A stretch of 64,000 nucleotides of DNA from an uncultured Acidobacteriota bacterium (lineage in GTDB: Bacteria; Acidobacteriota; Vicinamibacteria; Fen-336). The stretch lies in NCBI GenBank assembly GCA_963697835.1, contig CAVOPG010000004.1:84616-148615 (forward strand). The letters run 5' to 3'. The position numbers and the translations under genes were made by a program. Shown here in pieces: positions 14,130-35,600 of this stretch (position 1 is the first letter of the stretch; each line of letters opens with the position of its first letter). The notes under the pieces are model-generated. The model was not told the origin of the DNA and ran no database searches. It worked only from the letters and a program-made list of their open reading frames with translations.

Positions 14130-14147
14130 GGGCGGGCCCCGCCGGCC

Positions 14148-14177
14148 CAGAGCGGGGCGCCTCGGCGCCCCGCTCTG
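14148..14177 (+). terminator. GC-rich perfect hairpin downstream of the PAP2-like gene
   Basis: CAGAGCGGGGCGCC-tc-GGCGCCCCGCTCTG gives a 12-14 bp stem 19 nt after the stop at 14129. There is no U-tract. Confidence 0.45.
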
Positions 14178-14267
14178 CGTCCAGTGGCCGAGGCAATCAG
14201 CCGAATCAGTCGCATCTACCGGAGGGCGCGCTCCGCCGGGCTAGAATCGGGCGGAGGAGTTCTTCGA

Positions 14268-15137
14268 GTGATCGCTCTCGTTCTCGCTGCCGCCCTGTCC
14301 ACGCCCACGCCGGCCGAGGCGCGGGTCGTCGAGTACCTCAAGGCCAACGTGAAGCCCGGCCAGCCCGTGGTGGTGTCCGACCTCTACAACACCGTCTTCA
14401 CCGCGCCCGAGGAGCGGGCGGTGCTCAACCGCCTCTTCAACACCTTCTTCAAGATGCCCCTCTACCTGGCCCAGCACCTCGCCGCCGCCGGGAAGCCGCC
14501 GACGCTCGGCGAGATCTCGGAGCAGTTCCACTTCGAGGTGCCGGGGGAGGCCGACGTCATGCTCCGGATCATGGAGTCGGACCCCCGCATGCCGCGCTTC
14601 GTCACGCGCGACGCGGCGACGGGCGAGATCACGAGCGTGGACGTCGACCGGATCCTCGCGCACCCGCGGTTCGGGAAGGCGCTGGAGCGGACGATCACCG
14701 GCTGGGAGCGCCGGCCCGCCCCCGCGTTCGCGACGACGACCTACGACGGGAAGCCCCTGACCTCGGAGTCCCTGGCCGGCAAGCCGCACCTCGTCTACTT
14801 CTGGTTCACGGGCTGCCCGCCCTGCACGCGGACCGCTCCCCTCCTCGCCGAGCTCGACCGCGATTACGCCGCCCGAGGCTTCCGGATCGTGGCCCTGAAC
14901 GCGGACCGCGCCCTCGAGCTGCCCACGACCGACGAGGACCGCGCGGCCTACGCGGCCCGGAACGGCTGGGGCTTCACCCTCGCCCACATGACGCCCGACG
15001 TGCAGGAGGCCTACGGCGCGGTGAGCGTCTTCCCGACCCTGTTCTTCGTGGACCGCAAAGGCACCATCGTGCGGCACTTCGTCAACTTCCAGCCGAAGAC
15101 GATCCTCGAGGAGGCGACCCGGGTCGCCCTGGAGTAG
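14268..15137 (+). CDS. TlpA/ResA-like thioredoxin-fold protein (CPPC) with an N-terminal extension domain
   Basis: YFWFTGCPPCTRTAPLL redoxin motif. GTG 14268 is preceded by GGAGGAG, and the track ORF starts at 14184. An N-terminal hydrophobic anchor is present. Confidence 0.7.
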   Translation: MIALVLAAALSTPTPAEARVVEYLKANVKPGQPVVVSDLYNTVFTAPEERAVLNRLFNTFFKMPLYLAQHLAAAGKPPTLGEISEQFHFEVPGEADVMLRIMESDPRMPRFVTRDAATGEITSVDVDRILAHPRFGKALERTITGWERRPAPAFATTTYDGKPLTSESLAGKPHLVYFWFTGCPPCTRTAPLLAELDRDYAARGFRIVALNADRALELPTTDEDRAAYAARNGWGFTLAHMTPDVQEAYGAVSVFPTLFFVDRKGTIVRHFVNFQPKTILEEATRVALE

Positions 15138-15203
15138 CGCCTGGCCGACACCGGCAGGGTCGAGAGGCGCGCCAAGCGCACCGAAAGAGCCTGCCGCGGG
15201 AGG

Positions 15204-17624
15204 TCACTCCGCGCGCAGGACGGCCGCGGGGTCCAGGCGCGCGGCGCGCCGGGCGGGCAGGTAGCTGGCCAGCAGCGCCGCCATGGACAGCAGCCCCGCC
15301 ACCACGGCGAAGGTAGCGGGATCGGTGGCGCTCACGCCGAAGAGCAGGCCCTGCATGACCCGGGTGAGGGCGAATGCCGCGAGGAGCCCCAGGGTCACGC
15401 CCGCCGCGGCCAGCCGCGCCGCCTGGCCCAGCACCAGGCGCAGGACGTCGCCGGCGTCGGCACCCACGGCCAGGCGCAGCCCGATCTCCCCCGTGCGCCG
15501 CTCGACCGAACCCGCCACGACCCCGTAGACGCCCACGGTGGCCAGGGCCAACCCGAGCAGGGCGAACCCGCCGAGAAGAGCCATGACGAAACGGCTCGCG
15601 GCCATCGAGTCGGAGAGGAGCGCCAGCAGGGGCCGCACGTTGTAGACGGCCAGTTCGGAGTCGAGGGCGGCCGCCTGGCGCCGGAGCACGCCGGCGAACG
15701 AGACGGGATCGCCTGAGGTGCGCACGACCAGGCTCACCCAGGACCAGCTCTGCTGCGGGTGCGGCACGTAGATCTCGGGAGGGGCGAAGATCCGCCGGTC
15801 GAAACTGCGGACGTCGCCCACCACGCCCACGACCTCGAAGGTGAGGGGATCGCTGTGATCAGTCGTGATGCCGATGCGGAGGCGTTGACCCAGCGGGTCC
15901 TGGCCGGGGAAGACCTGGGCGGCCAGCGTCTCGTTCACGACCGCCACGGCCTTCGCCCCTCGACGGTCGCCGGCATCGAACGTGCGGCCCTTCCGGAGCG
16001 GGATGCGCATCGTCTCGAAATAACCGGCGGTGACGGCGCGGTACTCCGCGCGCGGTCTCTGGCCGGGTGCCGGCGCGGACCGACCTTCCACGGTGAAGCG
16101 CGTCGCGATGTCGCCTCCGAGCGGCAGCGGGGTGATGGCGGCCGCCGAGATCACCCCGGGCATGTGGCGCACGCCTTCGAGCAGCTCGGCGTAGAAGGTG
16201 GCGCGCTGGTCCGGCCGCGGGTACCGGGTGTCGGGCAACGACACGGCGAGAGTCAGGACGTTCCTGGGATCGAAGCCGGGATCGACCGACAGGAGGCGAC
16301 GGAAGCTCTCGAGCAGCAGGCCGGCACCCGCCATCAGCACCAGGGAGAGGGCGATCTCGGCGATGACCAGGGAGCGGGCGCCGGGATGGCGCGCCAGGGC
16401 CGGGCTCCGGCCGCAGTCGTGCAAGGCCGCGTGGACGTCGGTGCGCGACGCGGAGAGGGCAGGGAGGAGGCCGAAGGCCACCCCGGTGAGAAGCGAGAGC
16501 GCGAGGGAGAAGCCCAGCACCCGGCCGTCGAGCGCGATGTCTCGAAGGCGCGGCGTGCTCGCGGGCGCGAGCGACAGCAAGGCGTCGAGGCCCCAATAGG
16601 CCAGCGCGAGTCCGGCCACGCCGCCCACAACACCCAGCAAGATGCTCTCCGTGAGGAGCGCCTGGACCAGTCGCGACCGCCTCGCCCCCAGCGCGGCGCG
16701 GATCGCCACCTCCCTCCGGCGTGCCAGCGCCCGAGGCAAGACGAGGTTGGCCACGTTGGCGCAGGCGATGAGCAGGAGGAACGCCACCGCGCCCAACAGC
16801 ACCAGGAGCGGCCGGCGCAGCTCGCCCACCGTGTCCGCATGCAGCGACTCCACCATCGCTCCCACGCCGGTGTTGTGGTCGGGGTATTCCTTCTCGAGAC
16901 GCAGGGCGATCCTGGCCAGCTCGGTCCGGGCCTGGGCGAGGCTCACGCCCGACCGGAGACGGCCAATCGCCACCAGGGACCGGTTGCCGCGCTGCTCGCT
17001 CTCTTCACCGTCCAGCGCCAGCGGGGCGAAGACTTCGGCACGCTCGACCTCGCGCGGCGGTCGGAAGCCCTGGGGCAGGATGCCGACGACGGCGTGGGGC
17101 TGTCCGCTGAGCGTGATACTCCGGCCCACGAGGGTGGGGTCGGCGCCGAGGCGCCGCCACAGGCCGTCGCCGAGGACGGCGGCGCGCTCGCCACCGGGCC
17201 GGTCCATATCCTCCCGGAGCAACTGGCCTCGCCCCGGCGCCACGCGCAAGGCCTGGAAGAAGCTCGCGGTGACCTGCGCCCCCTCTATGCGCTCCGGACC
17301 GCCGGGCCCAGCCAGGGTGAAGTCAGCCGCGCGCAGCGCCGCGATCGACTCGAAGCTCCGGCTCTCGCGTCGCCAGTCGCGGTAGTCTGGATACGAGATC
17401 ACGCCGGGCCGGCCGGGCTGGGCTCGCGTCGCCCCGCGGATCATGACCAGCCGGTCGGGCTCGGGGTAGGACAGGGGCTTGAGCAGGACGCCGTGCACCG
17501 CGCTGAACATCGCGGTCGTGGCGCCGACGCCGAGGGCGACGGTGAGAACGGCGAGCGCGGTGAAGCCGGGGCTCCGCACCAGCCGCCGTGTCGCGTGACG
17601 CAGGTCGTCGAGCAGCGTCTGCAT
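15204..17624 (-). CDS. ADOP-family duplicated MacB/FtsX-type ABC transporter permease (no adjacent ATPase)
   Basis: 806 aa. The characteristic N-terminus is LLDDLRHATRRLVRSPGFTALAVLTVALGVGATTAMFS. There are two MacB-periplasmic/FtsX-type modules. Confidence 0.85.
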   Translation of the reverse strand: MQTLLDDLRHATRRLVRSPGFTALAVLTVALGVGATTAMFSAVHGVLLKPLSYPEPDRLVMIRGATRAQPGRPGVISYPDYRDWRRESRSFESIAALRAADFTLAGPGGPERIEGAQVTASFFQALRVAPGRGQLLREDMDRPGGERAAVLGDGLWRRLGADPTLVGRSITLSGQPHAVVGILPQGFRPPREVERAEVFAPLALDGEESEQRGNRSLVAIGRLRSGVSLAQARTELARIALRLEKEYPDHNTGVGAMVESLHADTVGELRRPLLVLLGAVAFLLLIACANVANLVLPRALARRREVAIRAALGARRSRLVQALLTESILLGVVGGVAGLALAYWGLDALLSLAPASTPRLRDIALDGRVLGFSLALSLLTGVAFGLLPALSASRTDVHAALHDCGRSPALARHPGARSLVIAEIALSLVLMAGAGLLLESFRRLLSVDPGFDPRNVLTLAVSLPDTRYPRPDQRATFYAELLEGVRHMPGVISAAAITPLPLGGDIATRFTVEGRSAPAPGQRPRAEYRAVTAGYFETMRIPLRKGRTFDAGDRRGAKAVAVVNETLAAQVFPGQDPLGQRLRIGITTDHSDPLTFEVVGVVGDVRSFDRRIFAPPEIYVPHPQQSWSWVSLVVRTSGDPVSFAGVLRRQAAALDSELAVYNVRPLLALLSDSMAASRFVMALLGGFALLGLALATVGVYGVVAGSVERRTGEIGLRLAVGADAGDVLRLVLGQAARLAAAGVTLGLLAAFALTRVMQGLLFGVSATDPATFAVVAGLLSMAALLASYLPARRAARLDPAAVLRAE

Positions 17625-17809
17625 GCGGGCGCTCCTGTCTACGCCAGGGCCAGAGGATCAAAGGACGTGCCAGGGCCGTCCCCGAGGGAAGCCGCGGATC
17701 GGGAACGACTTCAGGCCCGGGTGGGGGCGGCGGGTGCGCCGGGAGCGTCCGTTTGTGGCACGCGGGCGTCCCAGGATCGTATCGATCTCAGGGCGCCGTG
17801 GCGGCGCCT

Positions 17810-21657
<3,848 letters not shown>

Positions 21658-21780
21658 CACCCACCTCCGACACCGCGCATCGTATCCCAGGGCCATCGAG
21701 ATCGAGGGGCTCCGGTTGTGGGCGCACCTTCGAGCGGCTACCCTACCGGCCAGCCGTCTCGAGAACGGGAGGAGGCTCAG

Positions 21781-22959
21781 ATGGCCGGCGCGGGAGAGGG
21801 TGATCTGACGACCCGGATCCACCACGGCCTAGCGTCCGGCCTGTCGTGTGACGCGATCGTCGCCGATCTGGTCAAGGGCGGGCTCTCGGGGCCGTCCGCC
21901 GAACGACTGGTCGACCGCGCACTGGCGGAGCGGGACGCGAGCGCTTCACCCCGAGAGCGCTCGGCCGACTCCGCGAAGGAGTATCCGGGCGGGCGACGCG
22001 CCATGGTCTGGGGTGCGTTCTGGCTCTCGCTGGGCAGCTGTGTCACCGGCGCCACGTACGTTTTCGCGAAGGCCGGCGATCCGTACGTTCAGTTCGTCCT
22101 GGTCTACGGCCCTGTCGTCGCCGGCGTCCTGGCCTTCGCACGTGGCCTCCACCTCTGGTGGGGGACGTTCGCCGGTCCGTTTCCGTGGCGGCCGGTCCTC
22201 GTCGCCGCGGCCCTGCCGGTCCTGGGGACCCTCGTCCTGGTCCATGGGACGGCGTGGGTGAGCGCCCGCCAGCGCGCCGAAAGGGCGGCGGAATGGGAGC
22301 GAAGCGAGCGTGCCGAGCGCGCGAGGCAGGAGGACGAGGCCGCTGCCGCCCAGCGCACTGCCGCCGACCAGGCTCGCAGCGAGGCGCAGGCGGCACGCGT
22401 CCGCGCGAGGCAGGAGGACGAGGCCGCTGCCGCCCAGCGCGCTGCTGCCGTCCAGGCTCGCAGCGAGGCGCAGGCGGCACGCGTCCGCAACGCGCTGGCG
22501 ACGGTGCGCGCCTCGGAGGACCCCACGGTCCTCTGCGACGCCGCGCTCCTCCTGGGTCGGAGCGGCCGGCGGGAGGCCGTCCCCGACCTCGAGGTCCTTG
22601 TCCGCAACCCCGGCTACACTCGGGTCCAGGGCTGCGCCGCGGCCGCTCTCGTCCAGCTCGGGGAGATCGACACCGCCCTCGCCTTCTACGTCGAGAGCGC
22701 CGGGAGCGCCGACCCCGACCTTCGCCGGTCCGCGTTCACGGGCTTCGGCGAGATCGGGCTCCGGGCCGCCCCGGTGGCGCTGCCGTTTCTCGCCGAGGCG
22801 CTGCATTCACCCCACTGGGACACGCGCTACCTGGCGGTCGACACTCTCTCGAAGCTGGGCCCCACCGCCCGGCCGCTTCTCGAGGAGGCCCTCAGGGACG
22901 CCCAGAAGGACATCCGGGAGCGGGCTACCCGCGCGCTCGCTCGGGACGAGCGCCGGTGA
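21781..22959 (+). CDS. membrane protein with a duplicated 28-aa charged repeat and C-terminal HEAT (PBS-lyase-type) repeats
   Basis: ATG 21781 follows GGGAGGAGG. The protein has several TM helices, then ARQEDEAAAAQR..A.QARSEAQAARVR twice, then HEAT-like repeats (DPDLRRSAFTGFGEIG, HWDTRYLAVDTLSKLG). Confidence 0.6.
   Translation: MAGAGEGDLTTRIHHGLASGLSCDAIVADLVKGGLSGPSAERLVDRALAERDASASPRERSADSAKEYPGGRRAMVWGAFWLSLGSCVTGATYVFAKAGDPYVQFVLVYGPVVAGVLAFARGLHLWWGTFAGPFPWRPVLVAAALPVLGTLVLVHGTAWVSARQRAERAAEWERSERAERARQEDEAAAAQRTAADQARSEAQAARVRARQEDEAAAAQRAAAVQARSEAQAARVRNALATVRASEDPTVLCDAALLLGRSGRREAVPDLEVLVRNPGYTRVQGCAAAALVQLGEIDTALAFYVESAGSADPDLRRSAFTGFGEIGLRAAPVALPFLAEALHSPHWDTRYLAVDTLSKLGPTARPLLEEALRDAQKDIRERATRALARDERR
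22321..22488 (+). repeat. 84-bp direct tandem duplication (2 copies) inside CDS 21781..22959
   Basis: GCGAGGCAGGAGGACGAGGCCGCTGCCGCCCAGCGC... occurs at 22321 and again at 22405. The copies differ at a few positions and the repeat is in frame (28 aa). Confidence 0.85.
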
Positions 22960-23004
22960 GCGAACGTGGTCCTCGCTTGAGGCGACCGGCGTACCGCCGA
23001 TCGT

Positions 23005-24353
23005 TCAGCTCGCCGACGGCTTCGCGGGGGGCGCCTCGAGCTTCTTCCTGAGGGACTTGATCGTGGCTTCCGGAGCGCTGGCCCGGGGGCAGCGACTCGG
23101 CGTACGCGAGCGCCTGCTCGAGGGCCTCGCGCGAGGCCGCGGCGTCGCCCTTCGCGGCGAAGATCTCCGACCGGGTCTGGAGCACGCGGACGCGGCGCGG
23201 GCCGGCGACCTTCGGCAGCGCACGGTTCGACGCGGCGAGCGCCTCGTCGGCCTTCTTCATCTCGAGGTAGGCGACCGCGAGTCGCGCCGGCGGGTTGTAG
23301 TCGTCGGGCAGGTCGTTCTCGGATGCCTGCAGCATCGGGACGGCCCGCTCCGGCTGCCGCAGCTCCAGGTAGGCCGAGAGCCGGTGCGAGTCGAAGACGG
23401 CGCGCTGCTCCGGTGTCTTCGCCGCGGCGGCCTGCGCCTCGAGGAAGGCCGCCCATCCCTCGGCGTCCTTCGTGGCGCCGGCCGCGTCGCCCGCGTCCTT
23501 GCGGGCCTGGATCAGGGAGAGGTAGCTCGTCGAGACGTCGTCGGCGGCTGCGCCGAGGCCGGGAGTCGGCCAGCGTCTCGCGCGTCGCCGTCTCCATCTC
23601 GGCGAGCGCTCCCGCGCGGACCGCGTCCTCCTTCCCGAGGTCGAGCGCGCAGGCGAGCCCGCTCCGCGCCACCATGACCGACGCCGGCGAACCCGACAGG
23701 CGGGGCAGGGCCTCGCGGGCGAGAGCCAGACACTTCGCCTCCTCGTGGAGCGACTGGTGGAGGAAGAGAAGGGCGCCGACGGCCCGGCCATAGGGCGGCC
23801 AGACGCTCGGCGCCTGGTCGAGGGCCTCGCGGTAGGCGGCCGCGGCCTCGGCGTCCTTCCCCTCACCGCTCCGGCGGTCGGCCCGCAGGAGGGCGGCCTC
23901 CGCCGGGGAAGAAGGAGCGGCGCCCGCGACGGTGGCGCGCGCCTCGTCGAGGAAAGCCCCCATCTCGGCGACGGTCATGCCGTCCACCCGCTGCATCACC
24001 ACGGACTCGTCGGCGGCGTTCAGCACGTAGAAGGTGGGCAGGGCGTCCAGGGAGAGTCGCTCCAGGTGCGCCGCGTTCTTCTCTTCGTCGACGTTCAGTT
24101 CGAGCCAGACGAACTGTCCGGCGCGGCTCGTGAGGGCGGGGTCGGTGAAGACGAATGCCCTCATCGAGCGGCAGGTGTGTCACCAGGGGGCCCAGGCTTC
24201 GATGAAGAGCGGGAGCTTCTGGGCCCGCGCCTCGGCCAGGGCTTTCGCATAGTCGTCGGCGACGAAGGAGAGGACCTTCTCGGGGCCATCGGCGGCGGCG
24301 GGGGCCGCGAGCAGGCCGAGGGCGAGAGCGGCGACGGGAATCGGGATGCGCAT
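23005..24353 (-). pseudogene. secreted thioredoxin-fold + TPR protein with TGA at the first CxxC position (candidate selenoprotein) and two additional frame breaks (~23560, ~23090)
   Basis: ATG 24353 with a signal peptide. The sequence reads ...PLFIEAWAPW-TGA(24180-24182 complement)-HTCRSMRAFVFTDPAL, in frame with ORF 22827..24164. The TPR-like C-terminal part continues in ORF 22925..23866 and then ORF 23005..23223 (ends ...IKSLRKKLEAPPAKPSAS). Confidence 0.65.
24122..24173 (-). other. extended imperfect hairpin 7 nt downstream of the in-frame TGA (SECIS-like candidate)
   Basis: On the mRNA, UGCC-GCUCG-au-GAGGGC-auuc-GUC-uucacc-GAC-ccc-GCCCUC-a-CGAGC-CGCG gives about 17 pairs in three stacked helices. 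The fold was drawn by hand, and the apical loop features were not validated against a SECIS model. Confidence 0.3.
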
Positions 24354-24387
24354 GCACGGTCTCCTGGGTGCGGCGACCACGGCCACG

Positions 24388-25638
24388 CTACACCCCGGCC
24401 CCGGGAGGGTCAAGGCTCAAGACGCTGGGGTGAGGACAGTGCAGACCGACGCACAGATCGGCCCGCCGATGTTGAAGGTGGCGGCGGCGCGGGCGTCCTG
24501 TCACCTGCAGCTCTTTCGGCGCCCGACCCTGCAGCTGCCAGGCGCACCAGCCGATCATGGCGACACCGGTGGCCCCGATGGGGTGGCCCTTGGCGATGAG
24601 GCCGCCCGAGGTGTTGATGCCGCACTCGCCGGCGGGCGCCGCCTTGCCGTCGACCCAGTAGCGCGCGCCCTTCCCGTAGCCCGCCTTGCCGATGACCTCG
24701 GTGCCGATCGCGCCCATGACCGTGAAGCAGTCGTGGAGCTCGGCCACGTTGACGTCCTTCGGCGAGACGCCGGCCATCGCGTAGGCCCCGTTCATCGCGG
24801 CGTAGGCCCCCTTCGGGCGCAGCACGTCGCGGCCTTCCTTCTTCAGGGGGTCGGTGGCCTGGCCCCAGCCGGCGATCCTCACGCAGTCCTTCTTCGAGAC
24901 GCCGAGCCGGGCGAGGCCTTCCTCGGTGGCGACGATCAGGCCGGCGTAGCCGTCGGTGATCTGCGAGCAGTCGAAGGTCTTCAGCCGCAGTCCGTCCGCG
25001 ATGTAGCGGTTGATGCCCTCGATCTGGCAGGCCTTCTCGACCGTGAGGTCCACGTTCCGCATCTGCGCGTAGGGGTTGTGCTTCGCGTTCCGGTACTCCT
25101 GGACCGCGATCGCGGCGAGGTGCTCCTCGGTGTAGCCGTGGGTCCCCAGGTAGGCGTCCATCACCTCGGCGAAGAGGTGCGGGAAGACGAAGACCTTGCC
25201 CGGCCGCTCGTCCGGGTGGGAGAAGTAGCCCAGCACCTTGCCCACGAGCTTGCCGTCCATCTTCCCGTCGGCGTCGCGCATCTTCTCGTAGCCGACCGCG
25301 ATGCCGGCCTCGCCGAGGCCGCACTGCAGCTTCTGGATCACGGAGAGGACGGCCTGCCCACCCGAGGCGCAGGCGTTCTCGACCGACTCGATGGGCTTCG
25401 CGCCGAGGCCGGGCACCTGGGCCACGAGGCCGGCGAGGAGGCCCTGCTCGTTGAGCGAGATGTTGCAGACCGCGCCGATCGAGGCCACGTCGAGGGCGGA
25501 GGCGTCGATCCCGATCTCCCGGCACGTCCCGGAGACGGCGTTGGCCACGATCTCGGGCACGGTCATGCCCATGAGCTTGCCGAACACCGACTGGTGGTAG
25601 GCGGCGATGTAGACGGGCTTCACGAGACCCTCCCGCAC
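24388..25638 (-). CDS. thiolase (SCP-x/nsLTP-type acetyl-CoA C-acyltransferase), with the last ~30 codons apparently out of frame
   Basis: Catalytic motifs are ENACASGG, HDCF and GHPIGATG. The likely start is GTG 25623 (VKPVYIAAY) after GGGAGGG. The expected C-terminus DARAAATFNIGGPICASVCTVLTPAS (stop at 24417) is found one frame over from about 24480. Confidence 0.8.
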   Translation of the reverse strand: MREGLVKPVYIAAYHQSVFGKLMGMTVPEIVANAVSGTCREIGIDASALDVASIGAVCNISLNEQGLLAGLVAQVPGLGAKPIESVENACASGGQAVLSVIQKLQCGLGEAGIAVGYEKMRDADGKMDGKLVGKVLGYFSHPDERPGKVFVFPHLFAEVMDAYLGTHGYTEEHLAAIAVQEYRNAKHNPYAQMRNVDLTVEKACQIEGINRYIADGLRLKTFDCSQITDGYAGLIVATEEGLARLGVSKKDCVRIAGWGQATDPLKKEGRDVLRPKGAYAAMNGAYAMAGVSPKDVNVAELHDCFTVMGAIGTEVIGKAGYGKGARYWVDGKAAPAGECGINTSGGLIAKGHPIGATGVAMIGWCAWQLQGRAPKELQVTGRPRRRHLQHRRADLCVGLHCPHPSVLSLDPPGAGV

Positions 25639-25671
25639 GGACGCCTCGATTCAAGATTCAAGATCTGACCC

Positions 25672-28498: not shown

Positions 28499-28641
28499 GG
28501 TTCAGTTCTAGCGGTTCACCCGGCCGGGGGCCATGACGGGCGTCATGCGGGTATCCGGCCGCCCGGAGACGCTGGCCAACGGCAGTAAAGTAGCCACGCC
28601 GGGCCGCCTCGGACAGCGACGGCAGGCGGAGGAGGGTTTCG

Positions 28642-29736
28642 ATGTCAGAGGACATGTCGCGTCGCGGTTTCCTGGCCGGGCTCACGGTCGGAGGAACGGC
28701 GTTGGCCCTCGAAACGGCGGCGGGCGCCGACGCCGTGGTGCAGCCGGTGCACCCTCGAGTGGAGGTCCCGCCCACGGGGGGACCGATCAAGATCCTGCTC
28801 GTGGCGAAGCTCGCTCCCGACGAGATCGAGACGATCCGCCGCGCGGGCCGGAACGTGGAGCTCATCGTCCCGCGCGACGACTCCCAGACCCTGACCGCGG
28901 CGGCGGAGGCCGAGGTGATCCTGGGCGAACCCCCCGCCGAGGCGATCCGGGCCGCGCGGAGGCTCAAGTGGGTGCAGCACTGGGCGGCCGGGGTCGAGAG
29001 GCTCCCCCGGGAGCTGATGCAGCACCCCTGCGTGCTCACGAACATGCAGCGGGTCTTCGCCCCCGTCATCGCCGAGACGGCCTTCGGCCTCCTGCTCGGT
29101 CTGACCCGCGGCCTCGTGCAAGCGTCGGTCCCGAACTTCCGGCTCCACAAGTGGGAGCGCGGCGGCAGCGTCCCCCTCGACGACCTCTACGGGAAGACGC
29201 TGGGCGTCGTCGGCCTCGGCGGGATCGGCACCGAGGTCGCCCGCCGGGCCCACCACGGCTTCGGCATGAGGGTCCTGGCCGTCGACCCCAAGCCCATGCC
29301 AAAGCCCGAGTTCGTCGCCGAGCTGCGGGAGCCGGCCTGGCTCCCCGAGATGGTCCCGCAGGTGGACGTCCTCCTCAGCTCGGCCCCCCACACCCGGGAG
29401 ACGGTGAAGCTCTTCGGCGAGGCCGTGTTCCGCGCTCTCCGGAGGACGGCCTACTTCATCAACGTCTCGCGGGGCGCGCTCGTCGACCAGGAGGCCCTGG
29501 CGCGGGCCCTGAAAGAAGGCTGGATCCGCGGGGCCGGGCTCGACGTGACCACCCCCGAGCCCCTTCCGCCGGAAGATCCGCTGTGGGATTGCCCGAACCT
29601 GGCCATCACCCCGCACAACTCCAGCGCCGCCCCCGTCCGCCAGGTGCGCATCGTGGCCCTCGTGGCCGAGAACGTGCGCCGCTACTCGACCGGGCTGGCG
29701 ATGCTGAACGTGGTGGACAAGGAGCGGGGGTACTGA
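28642..29736 (+). CDS. D-isomer-specific 2-hydroxyacid dehydrogenase family protein with a twin-arginine signal
   Basis: The TAT-like N-terminus is MSRRGFLAGLTVGGTALALETAAGADA. The NAD site is GVVGLGGIGTEVARRA and the catalytic region is AITPHNSS. Confidence 0.75.
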   Translation: MSEDMSRRGFLAGLTVGGTALALETAAGADAVVQPVHPRVEVPPTGGPIKILLVAKLAPDEIETIRRAGRNVELIVPRDDSQTLTAAAEAEVILGEPPAEAIRAARRLKWVQHWAAGVERLPRELMQHPCVLTNMQRVFAPVIAETAFGLLLGLTRGLVQASVPNFRLHKWERGGSVPLDDLYGKTLGVVGLGGIGTEVARRAHHGFGMRVLAVDPKPMPKPEFVAELREPAWLPEMVPQVDVLLSSAPHTRETVKLFGEAVFRALRRTAYFINVSRGALVDQEALARALKEGWIRGAGLDVTTPEPLPPEDPLWDCPNLAITPHNSSAAPVRQVRIVALVAENVRRYSTGLAMLNVVDKERGY

Positions 29737-29743
29737 GAGTGCC

Positions 29744-30541
29744 TCAGTAGAGGCGGAACGCGAGCTCCTGCGGGACGCGGGCGGCGACCGGCGCGTCGCC
29801 GCGCCGCGCGGGCTCGAACCGCCAGAAGGGCAGGACGCCCAGGACCGCGGCCTCGTGCGCGGCGTCGAGGGAGGCCTTGATCACCGGGCGGTGGAGCCTC
29901 CCATCGGTGCCGACGACCGCTTCGAACCCGACCAGCCGCTCGACGCGCATGTGTCCCGATGGGTCGCGATAGGTGGGGTCGACGGACAGCAGCCGCCGCG
30001 GCCAGGCCACGACCCTCCGCGCGAGCTTGTGCTCGGCGTCGTTCGCGTCCGGCAGCTCGCTCGCCACCTCGGACGGCGCCTCGCCCGGGGGGCGGTCGAA
30101 GGCCGTGCCTTTCGCGCGCAGGTAGGCTTCCGGTGTCAGAAGCACCTCGTCGATGCGCGCCGTGACGTCGGGGGTCACCGACCCCGGGGGGAGGCCGGTG
30201 AGGACGAGCTTGGTCCCCGGCTCGAGGCGTTTGCACTTCACTCGGCGCTCGCCGACCCTGGGCAGGCCCAGGTTCTCGAGCGCGAAGCGCGCCGTTCCAT
30301 TGTCGAAGGCGACGCTTCGTATGCGTACGGCGACGTCGCAGTCGCCGGTCAGACCGGCCCCGGCCTTGAGGGTGATCGCCCGCTCGTTTCCCCGGTGCGC
30401 AAGCACGCGCAGCGCACCCTCGTAGGGGCGGAGCAGGGGGGAGAGAGGCGTCGGAGCGGAAGGAGGGCCCTTGGGGCCGGCGGTCTTGCAGGCCGGCGCG
30501 AGGAGGGCGAGGAGCGCGAGGCCGTACCACGAGCGGGTCAT
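29744..30541 (-). CDS. lipoprotein with a TonB C-terminal-like domain
   Basis: Lipobox LLALLAPAC after ATG 30541. The C-terminus LDAAHEAAVLGVLPFWRFEPARRGDAPVAARVPQELAFRL resembles TonB_C. Confidence 0.55.
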   Translation of the reverse strand: MTRSWYGLALLALLAPACKTAGPKGPPSAPTPLSPLLRPYEGALRVLAHRGNERAITLKAGAGLTGDCDVAVRIRSVAFDNGTARFALENLGLPRVGERRVKCKRLEPGTKLVLTGLPPGSVTPDVTARIDEVLLTPEAYLRAKGTAFDRPPGEAPSEVASELPDANDAEHKLARRVVAWPRRLLSVDPTYRDPSGHMRVERLVGFEAVVGTDGRLHRPVIKASLDAAHEAAVLGVLPFWRFEPARRGDAPVAARVPQELAFRLY

Positions 30542-30589
30542 GAGCCATTCTACGACGGGCCTCCCGACCGCCAGCGATGTCATTCGAGG

Positions 30590-31480
30590 TCAGGGGCGCG
30601 GGGGGAGAGTGGCGCCCCGGTCCACCTTCGAGAGCAGTTCCCGGGCCGCGCCGGCCATGAGTCCGATGTCGCTCGAAGCCTGGAAGAACCGGAAGCCCTG
30701 GGCGATCCTCCGGTTGATCTCGACCGGATTCCCGGTGGGGTATCCGACGGGGACGCCGTGCCGGCGCCCGGCCTCGAGGACTTTCGTGAGCGCCTCCTCG
30801 ACGATGGGATCGGTGGTGCGCCCGCCCACGCCCAGGGAGAAGGACAAGTCGTTCACGCCCACGAAGAGGACGCCGATGCCCGGCACGGAAGCGATGGCCT
30901 CGATGTTCTCCACGGCCTCCTTCTGCTCGACGATAACGACGACGAGGACGTTCTCGTTGGCAAACCGCACGTACTCCGGCCCGCCCATGCCGTAGCGGGA
31001 GAGGGCGAAGGCGGGGCCGAAGCCCCGGACCCCGAGCGGCGGGTACCGGCAGGACGCGACCGCCCGCTCGGCCAGCTCCCGCGTGCTCGTGAACGGGAAG
31101 ACGACACCCAGGCTGCCCTCGTCGAGCACGCGCTTGGCGAGCCAGATCTCGTTGGCCGGCACTCGCGTGATGGGGACGGCCCGAGCTCCCCGGGTGGCGA
31201 GGAGGATCGCGCGCAGGCTCTCGAGCGTGATGGGGCCGTGCTCCATCTCGATCCACAGGAAATCGAAGCCGGCGTTCGCGAGGGTCAAAGCGGTGTCCAC
31301 GTTGGGGACGGTGACGGTCGCGCCCACGACCGGCCGCCCCTCGAGGAGGGCCTTCTTGAGGGCGCTCTCGCCGGGGGCCGCGGCCTCGCCCGGAGGGGGG
31401 GCCTGGTACTGGGCGGCGGCCCCCGCCCCGCGAAGGGCAACGGCCAGCGCGAGAACCAGGACGCGGGAGGGACTCGACAT
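30590..31480 (-). CDS. HpcH/HpaI-family aldolase with signal peptide
   Basis: ATG 31480 follows GGAGGTGG. A signal peptide is present. Family-like motifs are FDFLWIEMEHGP and LFVGVNDLS. Confidence 0.7.
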   Translation of the reverse strand: MSSPSRVLVLALAVALRGAGAAAQYQAPPPGEAAAPGESALKKALLEGRPVVGATVTVPNVDTALTLANAGFDFLWIEMEHGPITLESLRAILLATRGARAVPITRVPANEIWLAKRVLDEGSLGVVFPFTSTRELAERAVASCRYPPLGVRGFGPAFALSRYGMGGPEYVRFANENVLVVVIVEQKEAVENIEAIASVPGIGVLFVGVNDLSFSLGVGGRTTDPIVEEALTKVLEAGRRHGVPVGYPTGNPVEINRRIAQGFRFFQASSDIGLMAGAARELLSKVDRGATLPPRP

Positions 31481-31618
31481 GTTCCACCTCCCCTCGGCGC
31501 CATCGGGCACCCAGGAGCCGCGCCAGTATGCCGCCGTGGGGTCTCCGTCGGCAACCGGAGTAGCGCCGTTGCGTGGAGCGGGATATATAGGGTGAATGAC
31601 GCGCCTTCGGGGGCATGG

Positions 31619-32608
31619 ATGAGCGAGACAGCCAAGACGAGCCAGAAGAGAGCGGCCGTGTGCGGCGCCGGTGGCTTCATCGGCAGCCATCTCGTGAAGA
31701 GGCTCCGGAAGGACGGCTACTGGGTCCGCGGCGTCGACCAGAAGCCGGCCGAGTTCTCGCCGACGGCGGCGCACGACTTCCAGATCCTCGATCTCCGTGA
31801 GGAGAGGAGCTGCCAGGCGGCCGTCCGGCATCCAGACGGCGGGACCTTCGACGAGGTCTACCAGCTCGCCGCCGACATGGGCGGCATGGGCTTCATCCAC
31901 TCCGCCGAGTGCGAGATCATGCGGAACAGCAATCTCATCAACGTGCACATGACCCACTCGGCGGCGGCGGCCGGGGTCAAGCGCTACTTCTTCTCGTCGT
32001 CGGCCTGTGTCTACCGCAACATGAACCCCGACGAGCCGGAGCTGAGCGAGCCGGAAGCGTACCCGGCCCTGCCCGACAACGAGTACGGCTGGGAGAAGCT
32101 CTACGCCGAGCGCGTGGCCATGGCGTACGGCCGGCGTCACGACATGGTCGTGCGCCTGGCCCGCTTCCAGAACTGCTACGGGCCGGAAGGGACCTGGCGG
32201 GGAGGCCGCGAGAAGGCTCCCGCCGCCCTCTGCCGCAAGGTCGCCGAGACCGGGGACGGCGGCACCATCGAGGTCTGGGGCGACGGGACGGCGACGCGGG
32301 CCTACACCTATGTCGACGACATGGTGGACGGCATCGTCACCCTGATGCAGTCGGATCTGGAGGGCGGCGTCAACATCGGCCGGCGCGAGTACGTCTCCGT
32401 CGACGAGCTCGTCCGACTGATCGCCGGGATCGCGGGCAAGAAGATCGCCATCCATCACGTCGAGGGCCCGGTCGGGGTCAAGGCGCGCAACTTCCGTGTG
32501 GACCGCATCGGGGCCATCGGCTGGGAGTCGAGGGTGTCCCTGCGCGAGGGCCTCTCGCGTACGTACTCGTGGATCGAGGGCCAGGTCAGAGCTCACCGGC
32601 CGCAATGA
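31619..32608 (+). CDS. gme: NAD-dependent epimerase, GDP-mannose 3,5-epimerase-like
   Basis: Motifs are CGAGGFIGSHL, DMGGMGFI, YGWEKL (YxxxK), FQNCYGPEG and WGDGTATRAYTYVDD. Its stop overlaps the next start as ATGA. Confidence 0.6.
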   Translation: MSETAKTSQKRAAVCGAGGFIGSHLVKRLRKDGYWVRGVDQKPAEFSPTAAHDFQILDLREERSCQAAVRHPDGGTFDEVYQLAADMGGMGFIHSAECEIMRNSNLINVHMTHSAAAAGVKRYFFSSSACVYRNMNPDEPELSEPEAYPALPDNEYGWEKLYAERVAMAYGRRHDMVVRLARFQNCYGPEGTWRGGREKAPAALCRKVAETGDGGTIEVWGDGTATRAYTYVDDMVDGIVTLMQSDLEGGVNIGRREYVSVDELVRLIAGIAGKKIAIHHVEGPVGVKARNFRVDRIGAIGWESRVSLREGLSRTYSWIEGQVRAHRPQ

Positions 32609-35600
32609 CCGCGCCAGGCTGGGACTACCTGATCGTCACCGCCGCGCACGAGGCCCAGGCCGCGGCCTACCGCGAGCAGCTGGGCTGGCGGCGCGATCTG
32701 GGCTTCATCCCCCACGTGCGCCACGTCCTCACGATCGCCGACCCGGACGGGCGGCGCGTGGGCAGCGGCGGGAGCACGATCCACTGCCTGCTCACGATCC
32801 TCGGCCGGGAGCTCGGCAACCGGCGCGAGCGGCTCCCTGCCCCCGAAGCCTGGGGCGAGGCGCTCCGGTCCCTGCGCGTGCTGATCATCCATGCCGGCGG
32901 CGATTCGCGGCGGCTGCCCGCCTACTCCCCCTGCGGCAAGATCTTCGTTCCCGTCCCCGGCGACTCCGACCGCGTGCTGGGGCTGACCCTCTTCGACCGC
33001 CAGCTGCCCACCTACCTCCGGCTCCCTCCCGGCGCGGAAGGCCGGGGACAGGTCGTGATCGCCACCGGCGACGTGCTGCTGACCTTCGATCCGGCCCGGG
33101 TGCGGTTCGATCGGCCCGGGATCACGGGCCTGGGCTGCCTCGCGAGCCCCGACGTCGCCAAGGACCACGGCGTCTTCTGCGCGGGCGCGGCCGGACGCGT
33201 GCTTCGGTTCCTCCAGAAGCCGACGCCGGCCGAGCAGGGCGAGCAGGGAGCCCTCAACCGTCACGGGGAGGCGATTCTCGACATCGGCGTGATGAGCTTC
33301 GACGCCGAGGCGGCGCTCCGGCTCGTGGGGCTCTGCGACGTCCTCGCGACCCCTGGCGGAGAGCTGCGCTGGCGCGGTCCCCTGGCCACCGCCTTCGAAG
33401 GCTGGGGGCTCGACTTCTACCGCGAGGTCTGCTGCGCGCTCGGGGAAGAAGCGACGCGGGAGAGCTACATCCGCGCCGTCCAGCGCGCCGGCTCCGCCTT
33501 CGGGAGGGCTGAGCTCGAGGACCTCTTCCAACGCCTCTCGGGCATCCCGTTCGGGCTGGATCTCCTGCCCCGCTGCGGCTTCCTCCACTTCGGCTCCACC
33601 CGGCAGCTGATCACCAGCGGCAGCGATCTCATGAGCATCGATCGCGGGACGTCACACCACCACTCCTGCCTGCAGATCAACAACGAGCTCGTCGACGGTG
33701 GGATCACGCTCGGGCGCAGCTCCTGGATCGAGGGCTGCCGCATCTCGGCCCCCCTCGATCTGGGGGGCGACAACGCCGTCGTCGGTGTCGACGTCGAGAC
33801 GCCGTTGAAGCTGCCGGCGGGAGCGGTGCTCGACGTCCTGCCCGGCCGCACTCGCGGTGGGGAGCCGACCTGGTTCGTCCGCTGCTACGGCTGCGACGAC
33901 GTTCTCCACAAGCCGATCGACGCCGGCGGCTCGCTCGCCGGCCGGCCGCTCGGCGAGTGGCTCGAGGCGATGGACGCGCGGGCGGAGGACGTCTGGGACG
34001 CCGCCCAGCCGCCGGACGCGCGCTCCGTCTGGAACGGACGCTTCTTCCCCGCCGTGGCCCGGAACCGGGACGGCGCGCGCTGGCTCTGGCTCCTCGATCC
34101 CGCTCGCGCCAGTTCCGAGGAGCGTCGGGCGTGGCGGGCCGCCGATCGCTACAGCTTCGCCGAGATGCTGGGCCTCGCCGACCTCGACTCGTTCCACGAG
34201 CGGCGGCTCGTCCACCGGGCCGAGGAGCTGCGCCGCTCCCTGAAGCACCTCTTCGGGAGGGAGAGCGAGCTCTCGGCTCGCGAGCTGGCGCTCCTGTGGC
34301 GGCGTCTCGACCCGCCCCGCCGCGAGCGGTGGCTCGCCGACGTGATCCTGACCGCCCATGCGGAGCACGCCCGCTCGAGTGCCGAGGACGGCCTTGAACG
34401 GCTGGAGCTGTCGCGCATCCTGCACGGCCTCGGCACGGCCATCCTGCGGCTCGAAGACGCCGCCCCCGGCTGCGGTGCCGATCTCCTCCAGCGCGTCGAC
34501 GCGCATCTCGGCCCCGCCGAGCGGCAATGGCTGCGGTCGCTCGGCCTCGAGCCCGGCCTCCACCCCGGCGCGTGGGCGGAAGCGGCGCGCGAGGCCGCGT
34601 TCACCCACCTCGGCCGGGTGATCGTCCGCAGCACGGAGCGGGCGGCCGGCCATCCCCGGAACGCCCTGCGCAGCGACGAGATCATCTGGGGACGCGCCCC
34701 CGCCCGTCTCGACCTGGGCGGGGGCTGGACCGACACTCCACCGTACGCGCTCGAGCACGGCGGCTGCGTGATCAACGCCGCGGTCGACCTCAACGGTCAG
34801 CCGCCCATCCACGCCTACGCGCGCGTCATCCCCGAGCTCGAGGTGCGGCTCGTCTCGATCGATCACGGCAGCCGCCTGGTCGTGACCACGATCGAGGCCC
34901 TCGCCGACTATCGCGAGCCGACGAGCCAGTTCGGCATCGCCAAGGCGGCATTGGCGCTCACGGGCTTCTCGCCGGCCCACGCCACGTGGCCGGCCGGGGT
35001 CTCCACCCTGCCCGAGATGCTGCGCCTCTTCGGCGGCGGCATCGAGCTGACGACCCTGGCGGCCATCCCGAGCGGCAGCGGCCTCGGCACGTCGAGCATC
35101 GTGGGGGCGGCGCTCCTGGGCGTCCTCGCTCGCCTGGTCGGCCGGACGACGACACCGCGCGAGCTCTTCAACGGCGTGCTGCAGCTCGAGCAGGAGCTGA
35201 CGACCGGCGGGGGCTGGCAGGACCAGATCGGCGGCGTCGTCCCCGGGGTGAAGATGATCACCACCGAGCCCGGGATGATCCCCGACCCGCGGATCCACTT
35301 CGTCCCCGGCGATCTCCTCGATCCCCGAGCCTCGGGCGGGGCGACGCTCCTCTACTACACGGGGCTGCGGCGGCTGGCGAAGAACATCCTCCAGACCGTG
35401 GTCGGCAACTATCTCGACCGCGACCGCGCCGGGATGGAGACGCTCCGGCAGCTGCACGCCTTCCCGCCGCAGATGGCGGCGGCCCTCGCGGCGAAGGACG
35501 CCTCCCGCTTCGGGCGGCTCGTCGACGTGGCCTGGAACCTCAACAAGGAGCTCGACCCCGACTCGACGACACCCGAGATCGACGGGATGCTGGAGAGCGT

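What the first reader, a model, noticed from the sequence alone, without database searches (positions are those of the whole stretch)
24122..24200. In-frame TGA at the first Cys of a thioredoxin CxxC motif: candidate UxxC selenoprotein with a downstream hairpin
Minus-strand ORFs 24180..24413 and 22827..24164 share one frame. They are separated only by a TGA (complement of 24180-24182) and five sense codons. Joined, the exported protein reads ...KLPLFIEAWAPW-[TGA]-HTCRSMRAFVFTDPAL.... The stop therefore occupies exactly the first Cys position of a W-C-x-x-C redox motif, leaving U-H-T-C. Sec replacing the N-terminal Cys of CxxC in thioredoxin-fold proteins is the classic bacterial selenoprotein signature. 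A random nonsense mutation hitting that one codon out of about 450 would be a coincidence. From 7 nt after the TGA (24173 down to 24122) I can hand-fold a three-tier hairpin of about 17 bp: UGCC/GCUCG/GAGGGC...GUC-uucacc-GAC...GCCCUC/CGAGC/CGCG. Several caveats apply. The same gene also has two +1 frame breaks (~23560, ~23090). No selA, selB, selC or selD lies in this window. GC-rich RNA folds easily. The apical loop does not obviously match the fdhF-type SECIS loop I remember.
Basis: partly seen in the sequence, partly recalled or inferred. Interest (0 to 1): 0.8.

Follow-up and report, generated by a model that had tools for sequence, protein, structure and literature searches.

The report
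Uncatalogued secreted thioredoxin-TPR selenoprotein gene
The "stop codon" is almost certainly a conserved selenocysteine codon at the active site of an exported thioredoxin-TPR protein that is widespread in soil Acidobacteria, is annotated everywhere as a truncated "TPR protein", and carries an unusual two-hairpin signal after the codon.

Summary
On the minus strand one frame reads ...FIEAWAPW-TGA-HTCRSM..., and the hand-folded 17-bp hairpin is the computed minimum-energy fold.

The selenoprotein reading is strongly supported.
- The same TGA sits at the same codon in all 4 close relatives, in 77 of the 79 metagenome loci typed, and in 5 distant relatives (32-40% identity). It is never TAA or TAG.
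- An in-frame, signal-peptide-bearing N-terminus under coding constraint lies upstream.
- 41 genome orthologues have TGC or TGT there, a classic Sec/Cys pair.
- The TGA aligns with the nucleophilic first Cys of DsbD's C-terminal domain.

Only the TGA forms carry a two-part RNA structure.
Its structure is kept through compensatory changes.
It is invariant even at synonymous sites.

The two frame breaks are 1-nt insertions. At least four other genes in the window are also frameshifted, so this looks like an indel-prone assembly and not a decaying gene.

Sec machinery could not be checked. The family is absent from a 2026 catalogue of 119 prokaryotic selenoprotein families and from NCBIfam. H2 lies about 64 nt from the UGA, outside the consensus 16-37 nt.

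The parts
23005..24353 (-). Whole gene for the Sec-containing exported thioredoxin(Trx_7)-TPR protein, about 448 codons. It reads ATG 24353 ... UGA(Sec) 24182-24180 ... stop TGA 23007-23005. In this assembly it is interrupted by two 1-nt insertions.
   Evidence: The repaired translation is 70-89% identical over residues 64-448 to more than 100 database proteins of 384-385 aa.
24291..24353 (-). Start codon, with AGGAG about 6 nt upstream, and a Sec-type signal peptide MRIPIPVAALALGLLAAPAAA|DG.
   Evidence: Read directly from the sequence. Every TGA-form locus has an in-frame start and a hydrophobic signal peptide upstream.
24183..24290 (-). N-terminal part of the thioredoxin domain upstream of the UGA (beta1 and the preceding helix; ...LSFVADDYAKALAEARAQKLPLFIEAWAPW).
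   Evidence: It is conserved at the protein level in frame with the downstream part. Codon-position entropies are 0.70/0.45/1.02 bits upstream and 0.75/0.57/0.98 bits downstream.
24180..24182 (-). In-frame UGA, the inferred selenocysteine codon, in the motif W-U-H-T-C. It is followed by C, giving UGA-C.
   Evidence: TGA is present in 82 loci, TGC or TGT in 40, and TAA or TAG in none. It aligns with the first Cys of WCVAC in DsbD's C-terminal domain, PDB 1UC7.
24123..24172 (-). H1, a long hairpin at nt 11-60 after the T of UGA with 17 bp here. Its structure is conserved but its sequence is variable.
   Evidence: Compensatory changes occur, some through amino-acid changes (RSM/TSR to RFM/MKH). 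Native MFE is -26.1 kcal/mol against -16.3 for synonymous-resampled sequences in Sec forms, with no excess in Cys forms.
24104..24122 (-). H2, a 19-nt hairpin GCCGGAC-AGUUC-GUCUGGC (7 bp, 5-nt loop with G-U at loop positions 2-3). It abuts H1 and is sequence-invariant in all Sec forms. It is the candidate SelB-binding minihelix.
   Evidence: It is 100% paired in 72 distinct sequences. Synonymous sites are frozen (GCC 73/73, GUC 72/72, Gly only GGA or GGG). The rare changes keep the pairs (L097, L131, L132).
23964..24257 (-). Thioredoxin_7 / DsbD-gamma-like domain (residues about 33-130), spanning the UGA.
   Evidence: Pfam PF13899 E = 5e-10. PDB DsbD C-terminal domain E = 2e-7. The AF2 model of a Cys-form homologue has pLDDT 92.4, with the Cys at the N-terminus of helix alpha1. 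Foldseek matches 3F9U with target-normalised TM-score 0.66.
23008..23906 (-). C-terminal all-alpha TPR superhelix (residues about 150-448).
   Evidence: Pfam TPR hits below the cut-offs. The AF2 model is all-helical. Foldseek matches LGN/Pins and consensus-TPR structures at E about 1e-6.
23563..23565 (-). 1-nt insertion (frameshift 1) relative to four orthologues. Probably an assembly indel.
   Evidence: and the frame switch seen.
23062..23064 (-). 1-nt insertion (frameshift 2) relative to four orthologues. Probably an assembly indel.

Best explanation
The locus encodes one exported protein of about 448 residues: signal peptide, a DsbD-gamma-like thioredoxin (Thioredoxin_7) domain, and a TPR superhelix. 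The N-terminal, nucleophilic residue of the W-C-H-T-C redox motif is selenocysteine, encoded by UGA (W-U-H-T-C). UGA is recoded co-translationally by a two-part mRNA structure inside the coding sequence. H1 is a 44-52-nt hairpin starting 5-13 nt after the UGA, and only its structure is conserved. H2 is an immediately adjacent 19-nt hairpin, GCCGGRC-RGUUY-GUCUGGC, whose sequence is conserved. H2 most likely binds SelB-Sec-tRNA(Sec). H1, when folded, brings H2 to within about 5-13 unpaired nucleotides of the UGA and may slow the ribosome at the UGA. The protein most likely acts in the cell envelope as a selenol-based thiol:disulfide oxidoreductase whose TPR domain holds client proteins. Shown here: the conserved in-frame UGA, the Sec/Cys pairing, coding constraint on both sides, the Sec-form-specific RNA structure, and the fold. 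Inferred: Sec insertion itself, SelB binding to H2, the spacer or stimulator role of H1, and the biochemical function. The two frame breaks are sequencing or assembly indels and not gene decay.
For: (1) Conservation of the UGA. More than 100 homologues at 70-89% identity are all called from the Met five codons after the TGA, at 384-385 aa and 86% query coverage. DNA of 4 close loci, 77 of the 79 metagenome loci typed, and 5 distant loci (32-40% identity) all show TGA at that codon, never TAA or TAG. The metagenome loci were found with a pattern that is blind to this codon.
(2) Sec/Cys pair. 41 GTDB genome orthologues read EAWAPW-C-H[TS]C with TGC or TGT. Among unbiased 50%-identity cluster representatives, 53 are truncated (Sec-like) and 64 are full-length Cys forms.
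(3) The upstream segment is translated in the same frame. Codon-position entropies are 0.70/0.45/1.02 bits, and every locus has an in-frame start and signal peptide.
(4) The RNA structure is specific to TGA forms.
- MFE of nt 4-84 is -40.4+/-2.9 kcal/mol in Sec forms and -28.8+/-5.1 in Cys forms, at equal GC.
- 83.1% of cells are paired, reached by 0 of 500 shuffles, against 61.1% reached by 378 of 500 shuffles in Cys forms.
- Synonymous-codon resampling gives z = -2.6 for Sec forms and -0.25 for Cys forms.
- H2 synonymous sites have zero entropy, while other conserved 4-fold sites have mostly about 0.9-1.7 bits.
- The peptide AG[RQ]F[VA]W that H2 encodes is present in 49 of 53 Sec-like representatives and 4 of 64 Cys representatives.
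- Rare changes in H2 preserve the pairs.
(5) Active-site position. The UGA aligns with the first Cys of DsbD-gamma WCVAC. In a pLDDT 92 model it lies at the N-terminus of helix alpha1.
(6) It is the only such TGA in the window, and TGA is also this gene's normal stop.
(7) Frameshifts also occur in the thiolase, OYE, S9 peptidase and beta-lactamase-like genes of the window.
(8) Acidobacteria include Sec-decoding species (PMC1794560 Table 2; PMC12013277).
Against: - No selA, selB, selD or tRNA-Sec was found in the window or in 823 kb of related loci. The Sec-decoding trait of this organism is therefore unverified.
- Neither hairpin alone fits the published bSECIS consensus (PMC13188914). H2 has the right size, a loop G and sufficient energy, but lies about 64 nt from the UGA against the 16-37 nt of the model. 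H1 has the right spacing but no G at the start of its loop.
- No Rfam family matches.
- No proteomic or Se-labelling evidence exists.
- The covariation statistics in H1 are moderate under a single fixed register: 7 pairs have double changes, reached by 18 of 500 shuffles.
- The sequences are phylogenetically related, so the shuffle counts are not probabilities.
Confidence: 0.88

Rival explanations
1. The gene is a pseudogene. The TGA is a chance nonsense mutation in a gene that is also frameshifted twice.
For: Two frame breaks lie in the same gene. No Sec machinery lies in the window.
Against: The same TGA is present in 86 loci in all, down to 32% protein identity, with intact reading frames of 370-390 codons downstream and coding-type constraint upstream. 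The frameshifts are 1-nt insertions, and the same kind of break is seen in at least four other genes of this window. No orthologue shares them.
Confidence: 0.02
2. Programmed stop-codon read-through without selenocysteine. H1 acts as a read-through stimulator, and a near-cognate tRNA (Trp or Cys) or a suppressor tRNA decodes the UGA.
For: H1 starts 5-13 nt after the UGA, similar to the spacing of known downstream recoding stimulators (my own recollection, not checked here). The UGA-C context is leaky in E. coli (also my own recollection). Sec machinery is unverified. The hairpins do not fit the standard bSECIS model (PMC13188914).
Against: The codon alternates only with Cys codons, at the catalytic nucleophile of a CxxC motif. 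That is the hallmark of Sec and not of generic read-through. H2 is a sequence-invariant minihelix of 7 bp with a 5-nt loop carrying G-U, the size and loop signature of SelB-binding SECIS minihelices (PMC8659212, PMC13188914). Sec-decoding is known in Acidobacteria (PMC1794560).
Confidence: 0.06
3. The gene is genuinely split. A 57-residue exported peptide and a separate 384-residue cytoplasmic TPR protein are made, as current annotations imply.
For: Gene callers produce exactly this, with 54-68-aa and 384-aa ORFs. A Met lies five codons after the TGA.
Against: The split would cut a thioredoxin fold between beta1 and the active-site helix, and would leave the catalytic motif without its first residue. 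That Met is equally conserved in full-length Cys forms (CRSM), so it is a structural residue. No Shine-Dalgarno sequence precedes it in the window. The frame relation and the 15-nt gap are invariant. The stop is never TAA or TAG.
Confidence: 0.03

Closest known systems
Bacterial UxxC thioredoxin-fold selenoproteins: Trx PF00085, thiol:disulfide interchange protein PF13098, DsbA-like, DsbG-like and Prx-like families listed in PMC13188914 Table 1
   Same: Sec replaces the N-terminal Cys of CxxC in a thioredoxin fold. Cys-containing orthologues exist. A stem-loop inside the ORF follows the UGA. The Sec and Cys forms are interleaved in the family tree.
   Different: The domain family is different (Thioredoxin_7 / DsbD-gamma-like, PF13899), and it is fused to a TPR superhelix of about 300 residues with a signal peptide. 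This family is not among the 119 families in that table, and no NCBIfam model reaches its cut-off. The recoding signal is two adjacent hairpins, with the conserved one about 64 nt from the UGA.
Trx7/PDZ domain-containing (seleno)protein, NCBIfam NF041199
   Same: It also carries a Thioredoxin_7-type domain in a multidomain selenoprotein whose second module binds proteins.
   Different: The match scores only 15.9 bits against a cut-off of 300. Its motif is CxxU, whereas this family has UxxC. Its partner domain is PDZ, not TPR.
C-terminal periplasmic domain of DsbD (cDsbD; PDB 1UC7, 2FWE)
   Same: It is the best sequence match among solved structures (E = 2e-7, residues 32-131). WCHTC aligns with WCVAC, and both are periplasmic.
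   Different: cDsbD is one domain of a membrane electron transporter and uses Cys. Here the domain is soluble, fused to TPRs, and uses Sec. No DsbD transmembrane domain is present.
E. coli fdhF-type SECIS / bSECIS consensus (PMC8659212, PMC13188914)
   Same: H2 is a minihelix of similar size (19 nt against 17 nt) with G-U in a small apical loop. It lies inside the ORF downstream of the UGA. Its MFE is well below -7.5 kcal/mol.
   Different: H2 begins 57 nt after the UGA, with its loop about 64 nt away. The E. coli minihelix begins 11 nt after the UGA, and the consensus spacing is 16-37 nt. A covarying 44-52-nt hairpin fills the gap. There is no bulged U; a G.U wobble occurs in the stem. No Rfam match was found.
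CnoX/YbbN chaperedoxin (thioredoxin plus TPR), recalled from my own knowledge
   Same: The two-domain logic is the same: an N-terminal thioredoxin fold followed by a C-terminal TPR domain that binds client proteins.
   Different: CnoX is cytoplasmic and contains no Sec. No sequence hit appears in the PDB search at E <= 0.01, and it is not among the top 50 Foldseek matches. The resemblance is in architecture only.

Membership tests
Bacterial selenoprotein gene (UGA-Sec recoding) | In-frame UGA with protein-level conservation on both sides across orthologues | tested here: met
   86 loci carry TGA. The codon-position entropy pattern is that of coding sequence both upstream and downstream.
Bacterial selenoprotein gene (UGA-Sec recoding) | Homologues with Cys aligned to the UGA | tested here: met
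   41 genome loci and 2 metagenome loci carry TGC or TGT in EAWAPW-C-HxC. 64 full-length Cys cluster representatives were found.
Bacterial selenoprotein gene (UGA-Sec recoding) | Downstream SECIS fitting the bSECIS consensus: 3-9-nt loop, 4-16-bp stem, G in the first two loop positions, 16-37 nt from UGA to loop, MFE <= -7.5 kcal/mol | tested here: inconclusive
   H2 meets every criterion except spacing, at about 64 nt. H1 meets the spacing criterion, at about 30 nt, but its loop UUCACC has no G at the first two positions (criteria from PMC13188914). A conserved structure specific to Sec forms does exist.
Bacterial selenoprotein gene (UGA-Sec recoding) | selA, selB, selC (tRNA-Sec) and selD in the same genome | not testable with these tools
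   They are absent from the 64 kb window and from 823 kb of related loci. The window contig is not in the searchable collection.
Bacterial selenoprotein gene (UGA-Sec recoding) | Selenium demonstrated in the protein | not testable with these tools
   This needs proteomics or 75Se labelling.
Thioredoxin fold, Thioredoxin_7 (PF13899) / DsbD-gamma-like | Profile match above the curated threshold | tested here: met
   PF13899 scores 39.8 bits against a cut-off of 27, and PF00085 scores 29.2 against 23.5.
Thioredoxin fold, Thioredoxin_7 (PF13899) / DsbD-gamma-like | CxxC at the N-terminus of helix alpha1, plus the conserved proline loop | tested here: met
   In the AF2 model of a Cys form, C64-H-T-C67 lies at the start of helix 65-74. 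W63, C64, C67 and P112 are invariant in 51 Cys forms.
NF041199 Trx7/PDZ (seleno)protein | Score at or above the curated cut-off, CxxU motif, PDZ domain | tested here: not met
   The score is 15.9 bits against a cut-off of 300. The motif here is UxxC, and the C-terminus is TPR.
Rfam RNA families (any described SECIS or cis-regulatory family) | Covariance-model match | tested here: not met
   There is no hit at gathering threshold in the window. The best E-value in the 201-nt region is 2.9, to unrelated families.

The most novel reading that the evidence does not exclude
The recoding signal is a previously undescribed bipartite bacterial SECIS. A sequence-invariant SelB-binding minihelix (H2) sits 57 nt downstream of the UGA, far outside the canonical window. 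It is brought into register with the ribosome by a structure-only spacer hairpin (H1) of 44-52 nt that loops out the intervening coding sequence. H1 may also act like a eukaryotic Sec redefinition element by pausing the ribosome at the UGA. The signal marks a large, entirely mis-annotated selenoprotein family of soil Acidobacteria. Consensus-based SECIS finders would miss the family.
Probability: 0.45. Interest if true: 0.7.

Novelty: new member of a known kind. Interest (0 to 1): 0.62.

Why it matters
Three things follow if this holds.

1. Annotation. An abundant family in soil metagenomes is annotated everywhere as a truncated "tetratricopeptide repeat protein" plus an orphan mini-ORF. The unbiased search gave 296 hits at E <= 1e-30 among 50%-identity cluster representatives, and about half of those whose N-terminus could be classified are Sec-like. 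Recognising the Sec codon restores a signal peptide and the catalytic residue. It also adds a family that is absent from the 2026 catalogue of 119 prokaryotic selenoprotein families and from NCBIfam.

2. Ecology. Selenium use by Vicinamibacteria and related Acidobacteria would extend into envelope redox chemistry in soils.

3. Mechanism. The conserved hairpin lies outside the spacing window assumed by bacterial SECIS predictors. If H2 is the SelB site, the spacing rule is topological and not linear. That idea can be tested with reporters, and it would explain why such genes are missed.

The family also offers a clean natural series of Sec-to-Cys conversions, some of which still carry fossil hairpins.

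Tried and rejected
- Rfam at gathering threshold over the whole window, and at E <= 10 on 24050-24250, gave nothing relevant.
- A tRNA scan of the window and of all loci found no tRNA-Sec.
- tblastn with E. coli SelA, SelB and SelD against the window plus 126 loci (823 kb) gave no hit.
- Searching for the H2 sequence elsewhere found only a chance 3-mismatch match in the window, and exactly one copy per locus, always in this gene. No second selenoprotein gene was available to show which hairpin SelB uses.
- A scan of all loci for other in-frame TGAs with coding signal on both sides produced 8 candidates. None had a redox motif, and they look like neighbouring genes in the same frame.
- The look-up of the window's own contig failed because it is not on record.
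- RNAalifold on Sec forms recovers H2 and the H1 tip, but not the lower H1 stem. The lower stem uses two registers in different subclades. H1 was therefore assessed by per-sequence MFE and synonymous resampling.
- Two divergent clusters (P0153, P0196) could not be fetched as DNA.
- UGA reassignment was rejected. TGA terminates this gene, and only one in-frame TGA in 64 kb looks coding on both sides.
Full report
OBSERVATION

On the minus strand a single reading frame runs from ATG 24353, which has AGGAG about 6 nt upstream. It passes through a signal peptide and the sequence ...DDYAKALAEARAQKLPLFIEAWAPW. It then meets TGA (24182..24180) and continues as HTCRSMRAFVFTDPALTSRAGQFVWL.... I replaced the TGA by Cys and repaired two frame breaks by hand. 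The resulting 448-residue protein matches Pfam Thioredoxin_7 across the TGA (residues 33-112, 39.8 bits against a cut-off of 27). It also shows TPR-type repeats at the C-terminus.

It has 2+5+7+3 = 17 bp and occupies nt 11-60, counted from the T of TGA (window 24172..24123). The 84 nt from the TGA fold at -39.6 kcal/mol. This gives z = -5.08 against dinucleotide shuffles, and 0 of 200 shuffles fold as well.

This is the only in-frame TGA in the 64 kb window with a strong coding signature on both sides.

IS THE TGA A LESION OR A CODON?

A protein search returned more than 1,800 relatives. The best 120 are 69-89% identical. Nearly all are 384-385 aa and cover 86% of the query. That is, they are all called from the Met five codons after the TGA.

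The DNA shows the following.
- Two long ENA contigs, one short ENA contig and a Vicinamibacteria MAG carry the same TGA, the same 15-nt distance to that Met, and a conserved in-frame N-terminus.
- A metagenome scan used a peptide pattern downstream of the codon, so it was blind to the codon. It gave 80 loci of 46-85% identity. Of the 79 that could be typed, 77 have TGA, 2 have TGC, and none has TAA or TAG.
- Five much more distant members (32-40% identity), taken from an unbiased HMMER search of 50%-identity cluster representatives, also have TGA.
- 41 orthologues in GTDB genomes read EAWAPW-C-H[TS]C with TGC or TGT. These come from Thermoanaerobaculia, other Acidobacteriota, Candidatus Eisenbacteria and Myxococcota. 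That scan used a pattern containing Cys, so its Sec:Cys ratio is biased.
- Among the unbiased representatives whose N-terminus could be classified, 53 are truncated Sec-like calls and 64 are full-length Cys forms.

The 33 codons upstream of the TGA vary like coding sequence. Their entropies at codon positions 1, 2 and 3 are 0.70, 0.45 and 1.02 bits, against 0.75, 0.57 and 0.98 bits downstream. Every TGA-form locus has an in-frame start and a signal peptide. Together these are the standard comparative criteria for a selenoprotein gene: a conserved in-frame UGA, conserved flanks, and Cys homologues.

THE FRAMESHIFTS

Aligned with four orthologues, the window carries single-base insertions at about 23564 and about 23063. 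Proteins of syntenic contigs L001 and L002, compared with the window, switch frame within the thiolase, the old-yellow-enzyme, the S9 peptidase and the beta-lactamase-like genes as well. The breaks are therefore a property of this assembly, or of the whole genome. They are not evidence that this gene in particular is decaying.

THE RNA

All 76 distinct TGA-form sequences fold into the same layout.

H1 spans 44-52 nt and starts 5-13 nt after the UGA. Its sequence differs between subclades, but its pairing is maintained. For example, GCUCG.UGAGGGC/GCCCUCA.CGAGC in the window becomes GCUUCAUG.CGCGC/GCGCG.CAUGAAGC in L131. That change goes through the amino-acid substitutions RSM to RFM and TSR to MKH.

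H2 is GCCGGRC-RGUUY-GUCUGGC in every Sec form.

Quantitative comparisons of Sec forms with Cys forms:
- Mean MFE of nt 4-84 is -40.4+/-2.9 kcal/mol in Sec forms and -28.8+/-5.1 in Cys forms, at identical GC content.
- RNAalifold finds no consensus structure in Cys forms.
- With one fixed H1+H2 structure, 83.1% of cells pair in Sec forms (H2 100%), and 0 of 500 column shuffles reach this. Slid controls give 30-50%.
- The same structure on Cys forms gives 61.1%, reached by 378 of 500 shuffles.
- I resampled synonymous codons while keeping the protein sequence and the family's codon usage. Native Sec-form sequences are then far more stable than expected (mean z = -2.6; 76% have z < -2), while Cys forms are not (z = -0.25). 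For the window itself, 6 of 1,000 resamplings are as stable.

At conserved four-fold-degenerate codons, third-position entropy in Sec forms is mostly about 0.9-1.7 bits. The three H2 codons are the exception: Ala is GCC in 73 of 73, Val is GUC in 72 of 72, and Gly is only GGA or GGG (58 and 15), never GGC. In Cys forms the Ala and Val codons vary freely, at 0.97 and 1.23 bits.

The peptide that H2 encodes, AG[RQ]F[VA]W, occurs in 49 of 53 Sec-like representatives but in only 4 of 64 Cys representatives, in a set not ascertained by that motif.

The rare H2 changes keep the pairs. Val to Ala (GUC to GCC) is accompanied by GGA to GGG in L097 and L131. Gly to Arg (GGA to AGA) turns a G.U pair into A-U in L132. 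A one-codon deletion in H1 shifts H2 with it in L133.

In the most divergent members the H1 apical loop is not conserved, whereas H2 is. I conclude that H1 is selected for structure and H2 for sequence plus structure.

RELATION TO KNOWN SECIS ELEMENTS

The published bacterial consensus requires a 3-9-nt loop, a 4-16-bp stem, a G in the first two loop positions, 16-37 nt between the UGA and the loop, and MFE <= -7.5 kcal/mol (PMC13188914).
- H2 has a 7-bp stem, a 5-nt loop (A/G)GUU(C/U) and about -13 kcal/mol, but lies about 64 nt from the UGA.
- H1 has the right spacing, about 30 nt, but a loop without the G.

In E. coli the 17-nt minihelix sits 11 nt from the UGA, with G23/U24 and the bulged U17 essential (PMC8659212).

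With H1 folded, only 5-13 unpaired nucleotides (mean 7.6) separate the UGA from the base of H2. My preferred model, which is an inference, is that H2 binds SelB and H1 loops out the intervening 44-52 nt. H1 may also pause the ribosome.

Rfam has no matching family.

THE PROTEIN

The best solved relatives are the C-terminal periplasmic domain of DsbD (1UC7, 2FWE; E = 2e-7). WCHTC aligns with WCVAC, so the UGA takes the place of the first, nucleophilic Cys.

An AlphaFold2 model of a full-length Cys form has pLDDT 92.4 and pTM 0.88. It shows a thioredoxin fold with that Cys at the N-terminus of helix alpha1, followed by an all-helical domain. Foldseek matches the helical domain to TPR superhelices (LGN/Pins and consensus TPR). 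It matches the N-terminal domain to a Bacteroides exported DsbD-like domain, 3F9U.

With its signal peptide, the protein is most likely an envelope thiol:disulfide oxidoreductase whose TPR domain binds clients. This is inferred.

An exported MsrA/MsrB fusion lies nearby in the Vicinamibacteria contigs, but synteny is not kept in distant members.

IS IT KNOWN?

No NCBIfam model reaches its cut-off. The nearest curated selenoprotein model, Trx7/PDZ (NF041199, motif CxxU), scores 15.9 bits against a cut-off of 300.

A 2026 review tabulating 119 prokaryotic selenoprotein families lists no Thioredoxin_7/TPR UxxC family. The deep-Sep and BSepDB papers mention neither TPR nor this family.

Sources name the truncated products "tetratricopeptide repeat protein", "hypothetical protein" or "thiol reductase thioredoxin".

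Acidobacteria are known to include Sec-decoding species (PMC1794560 Table 2; PMC12013277).

A neighbour-joining tree interleaves Sec and Cys forms, with Sec forms on the deepest branches. Some Cys forms (L005/L094, L010) still carry an intact H2. This suggests repeated Sec-to-Cys conversion. The tree has no support values.

WHAT REMAINS OPEN

The Sec machinery of this organism could not be examined. Sec insertion, SelB binding to H2, the role of H1 and the biochemical function are all inferred.

VERDICT

The pseudogene alternative is rejected. The family is a new member of a well-known kind, the UxxC thioredoxin-fold selenoproteins. Its recoding signal may be a new variant.

Noticed in passing
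window 10070-25650 (for example about 24495, 20918, 19025 and 10555): Compared with orthologues on L001 and L002, at least four further genes switch reading frame mid-gene: the thiolase, the OYE-type oxidoreductase, the S9 peptidase and a beta-lactamase-like gene. The assembly seems rich in 1-nt indels.
   Followed up: partly
window about 28500-37400: About 9 kb lies between the Fer4_5-type gene and the MsrA/MsrB gene that is absent from the syntenic contigs L001 and L002. By eye it encodes an HpcH-like aldolase, an NAD-dependent epimerase, a long fucokinase/GHMP-kinase-like ORF and an HNH-endonuclease-like ORF (36074-37207). It may be an inserted island.
   Followed up: no
window about 37387-38520 (-): The MsrA/MsrB fusion protein begins with a signal-peptide-like sequence ([20 protein letters not shown]...), so it is probably exported. 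An exported methionine sulfoxide reductase needs an envelope thiol reductant. The Sec-Trx-TPR protein 13 kb away (4.4 kb away in L001 and L002) is a conceivable partner.
   Followed up: no
window 21259-22959 (+): A 566-aa ORF with an internal tandem duplication (ARQEDEAAAAQR.AA.QARSEAQAARVR, twice) and a HEAT-like C-terminus. The matching gene in L002 (11225-12913) has no Pfam hit.
   Followed up: no
L005 3100-3183 (= L094), L010 1157-1240, L045 3085-3168: These Cys-form orthologues (TGC or TGT) still carry an intact or nearly intact H2 hairpin sequence. L005 also keeps H1. They look like recent Sec-to-Cys conversions with a fossil recoding signal.
   Followed up: partly
L129 18121-19548: A reverse-transcriptase (RVT_1) gene lies 7 kb downstream of the distant Sec-form gene on a 1.25 Mb contig. 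It is probably a group II intron or a retron, and is unrelated to the finding.
   Followed up: no
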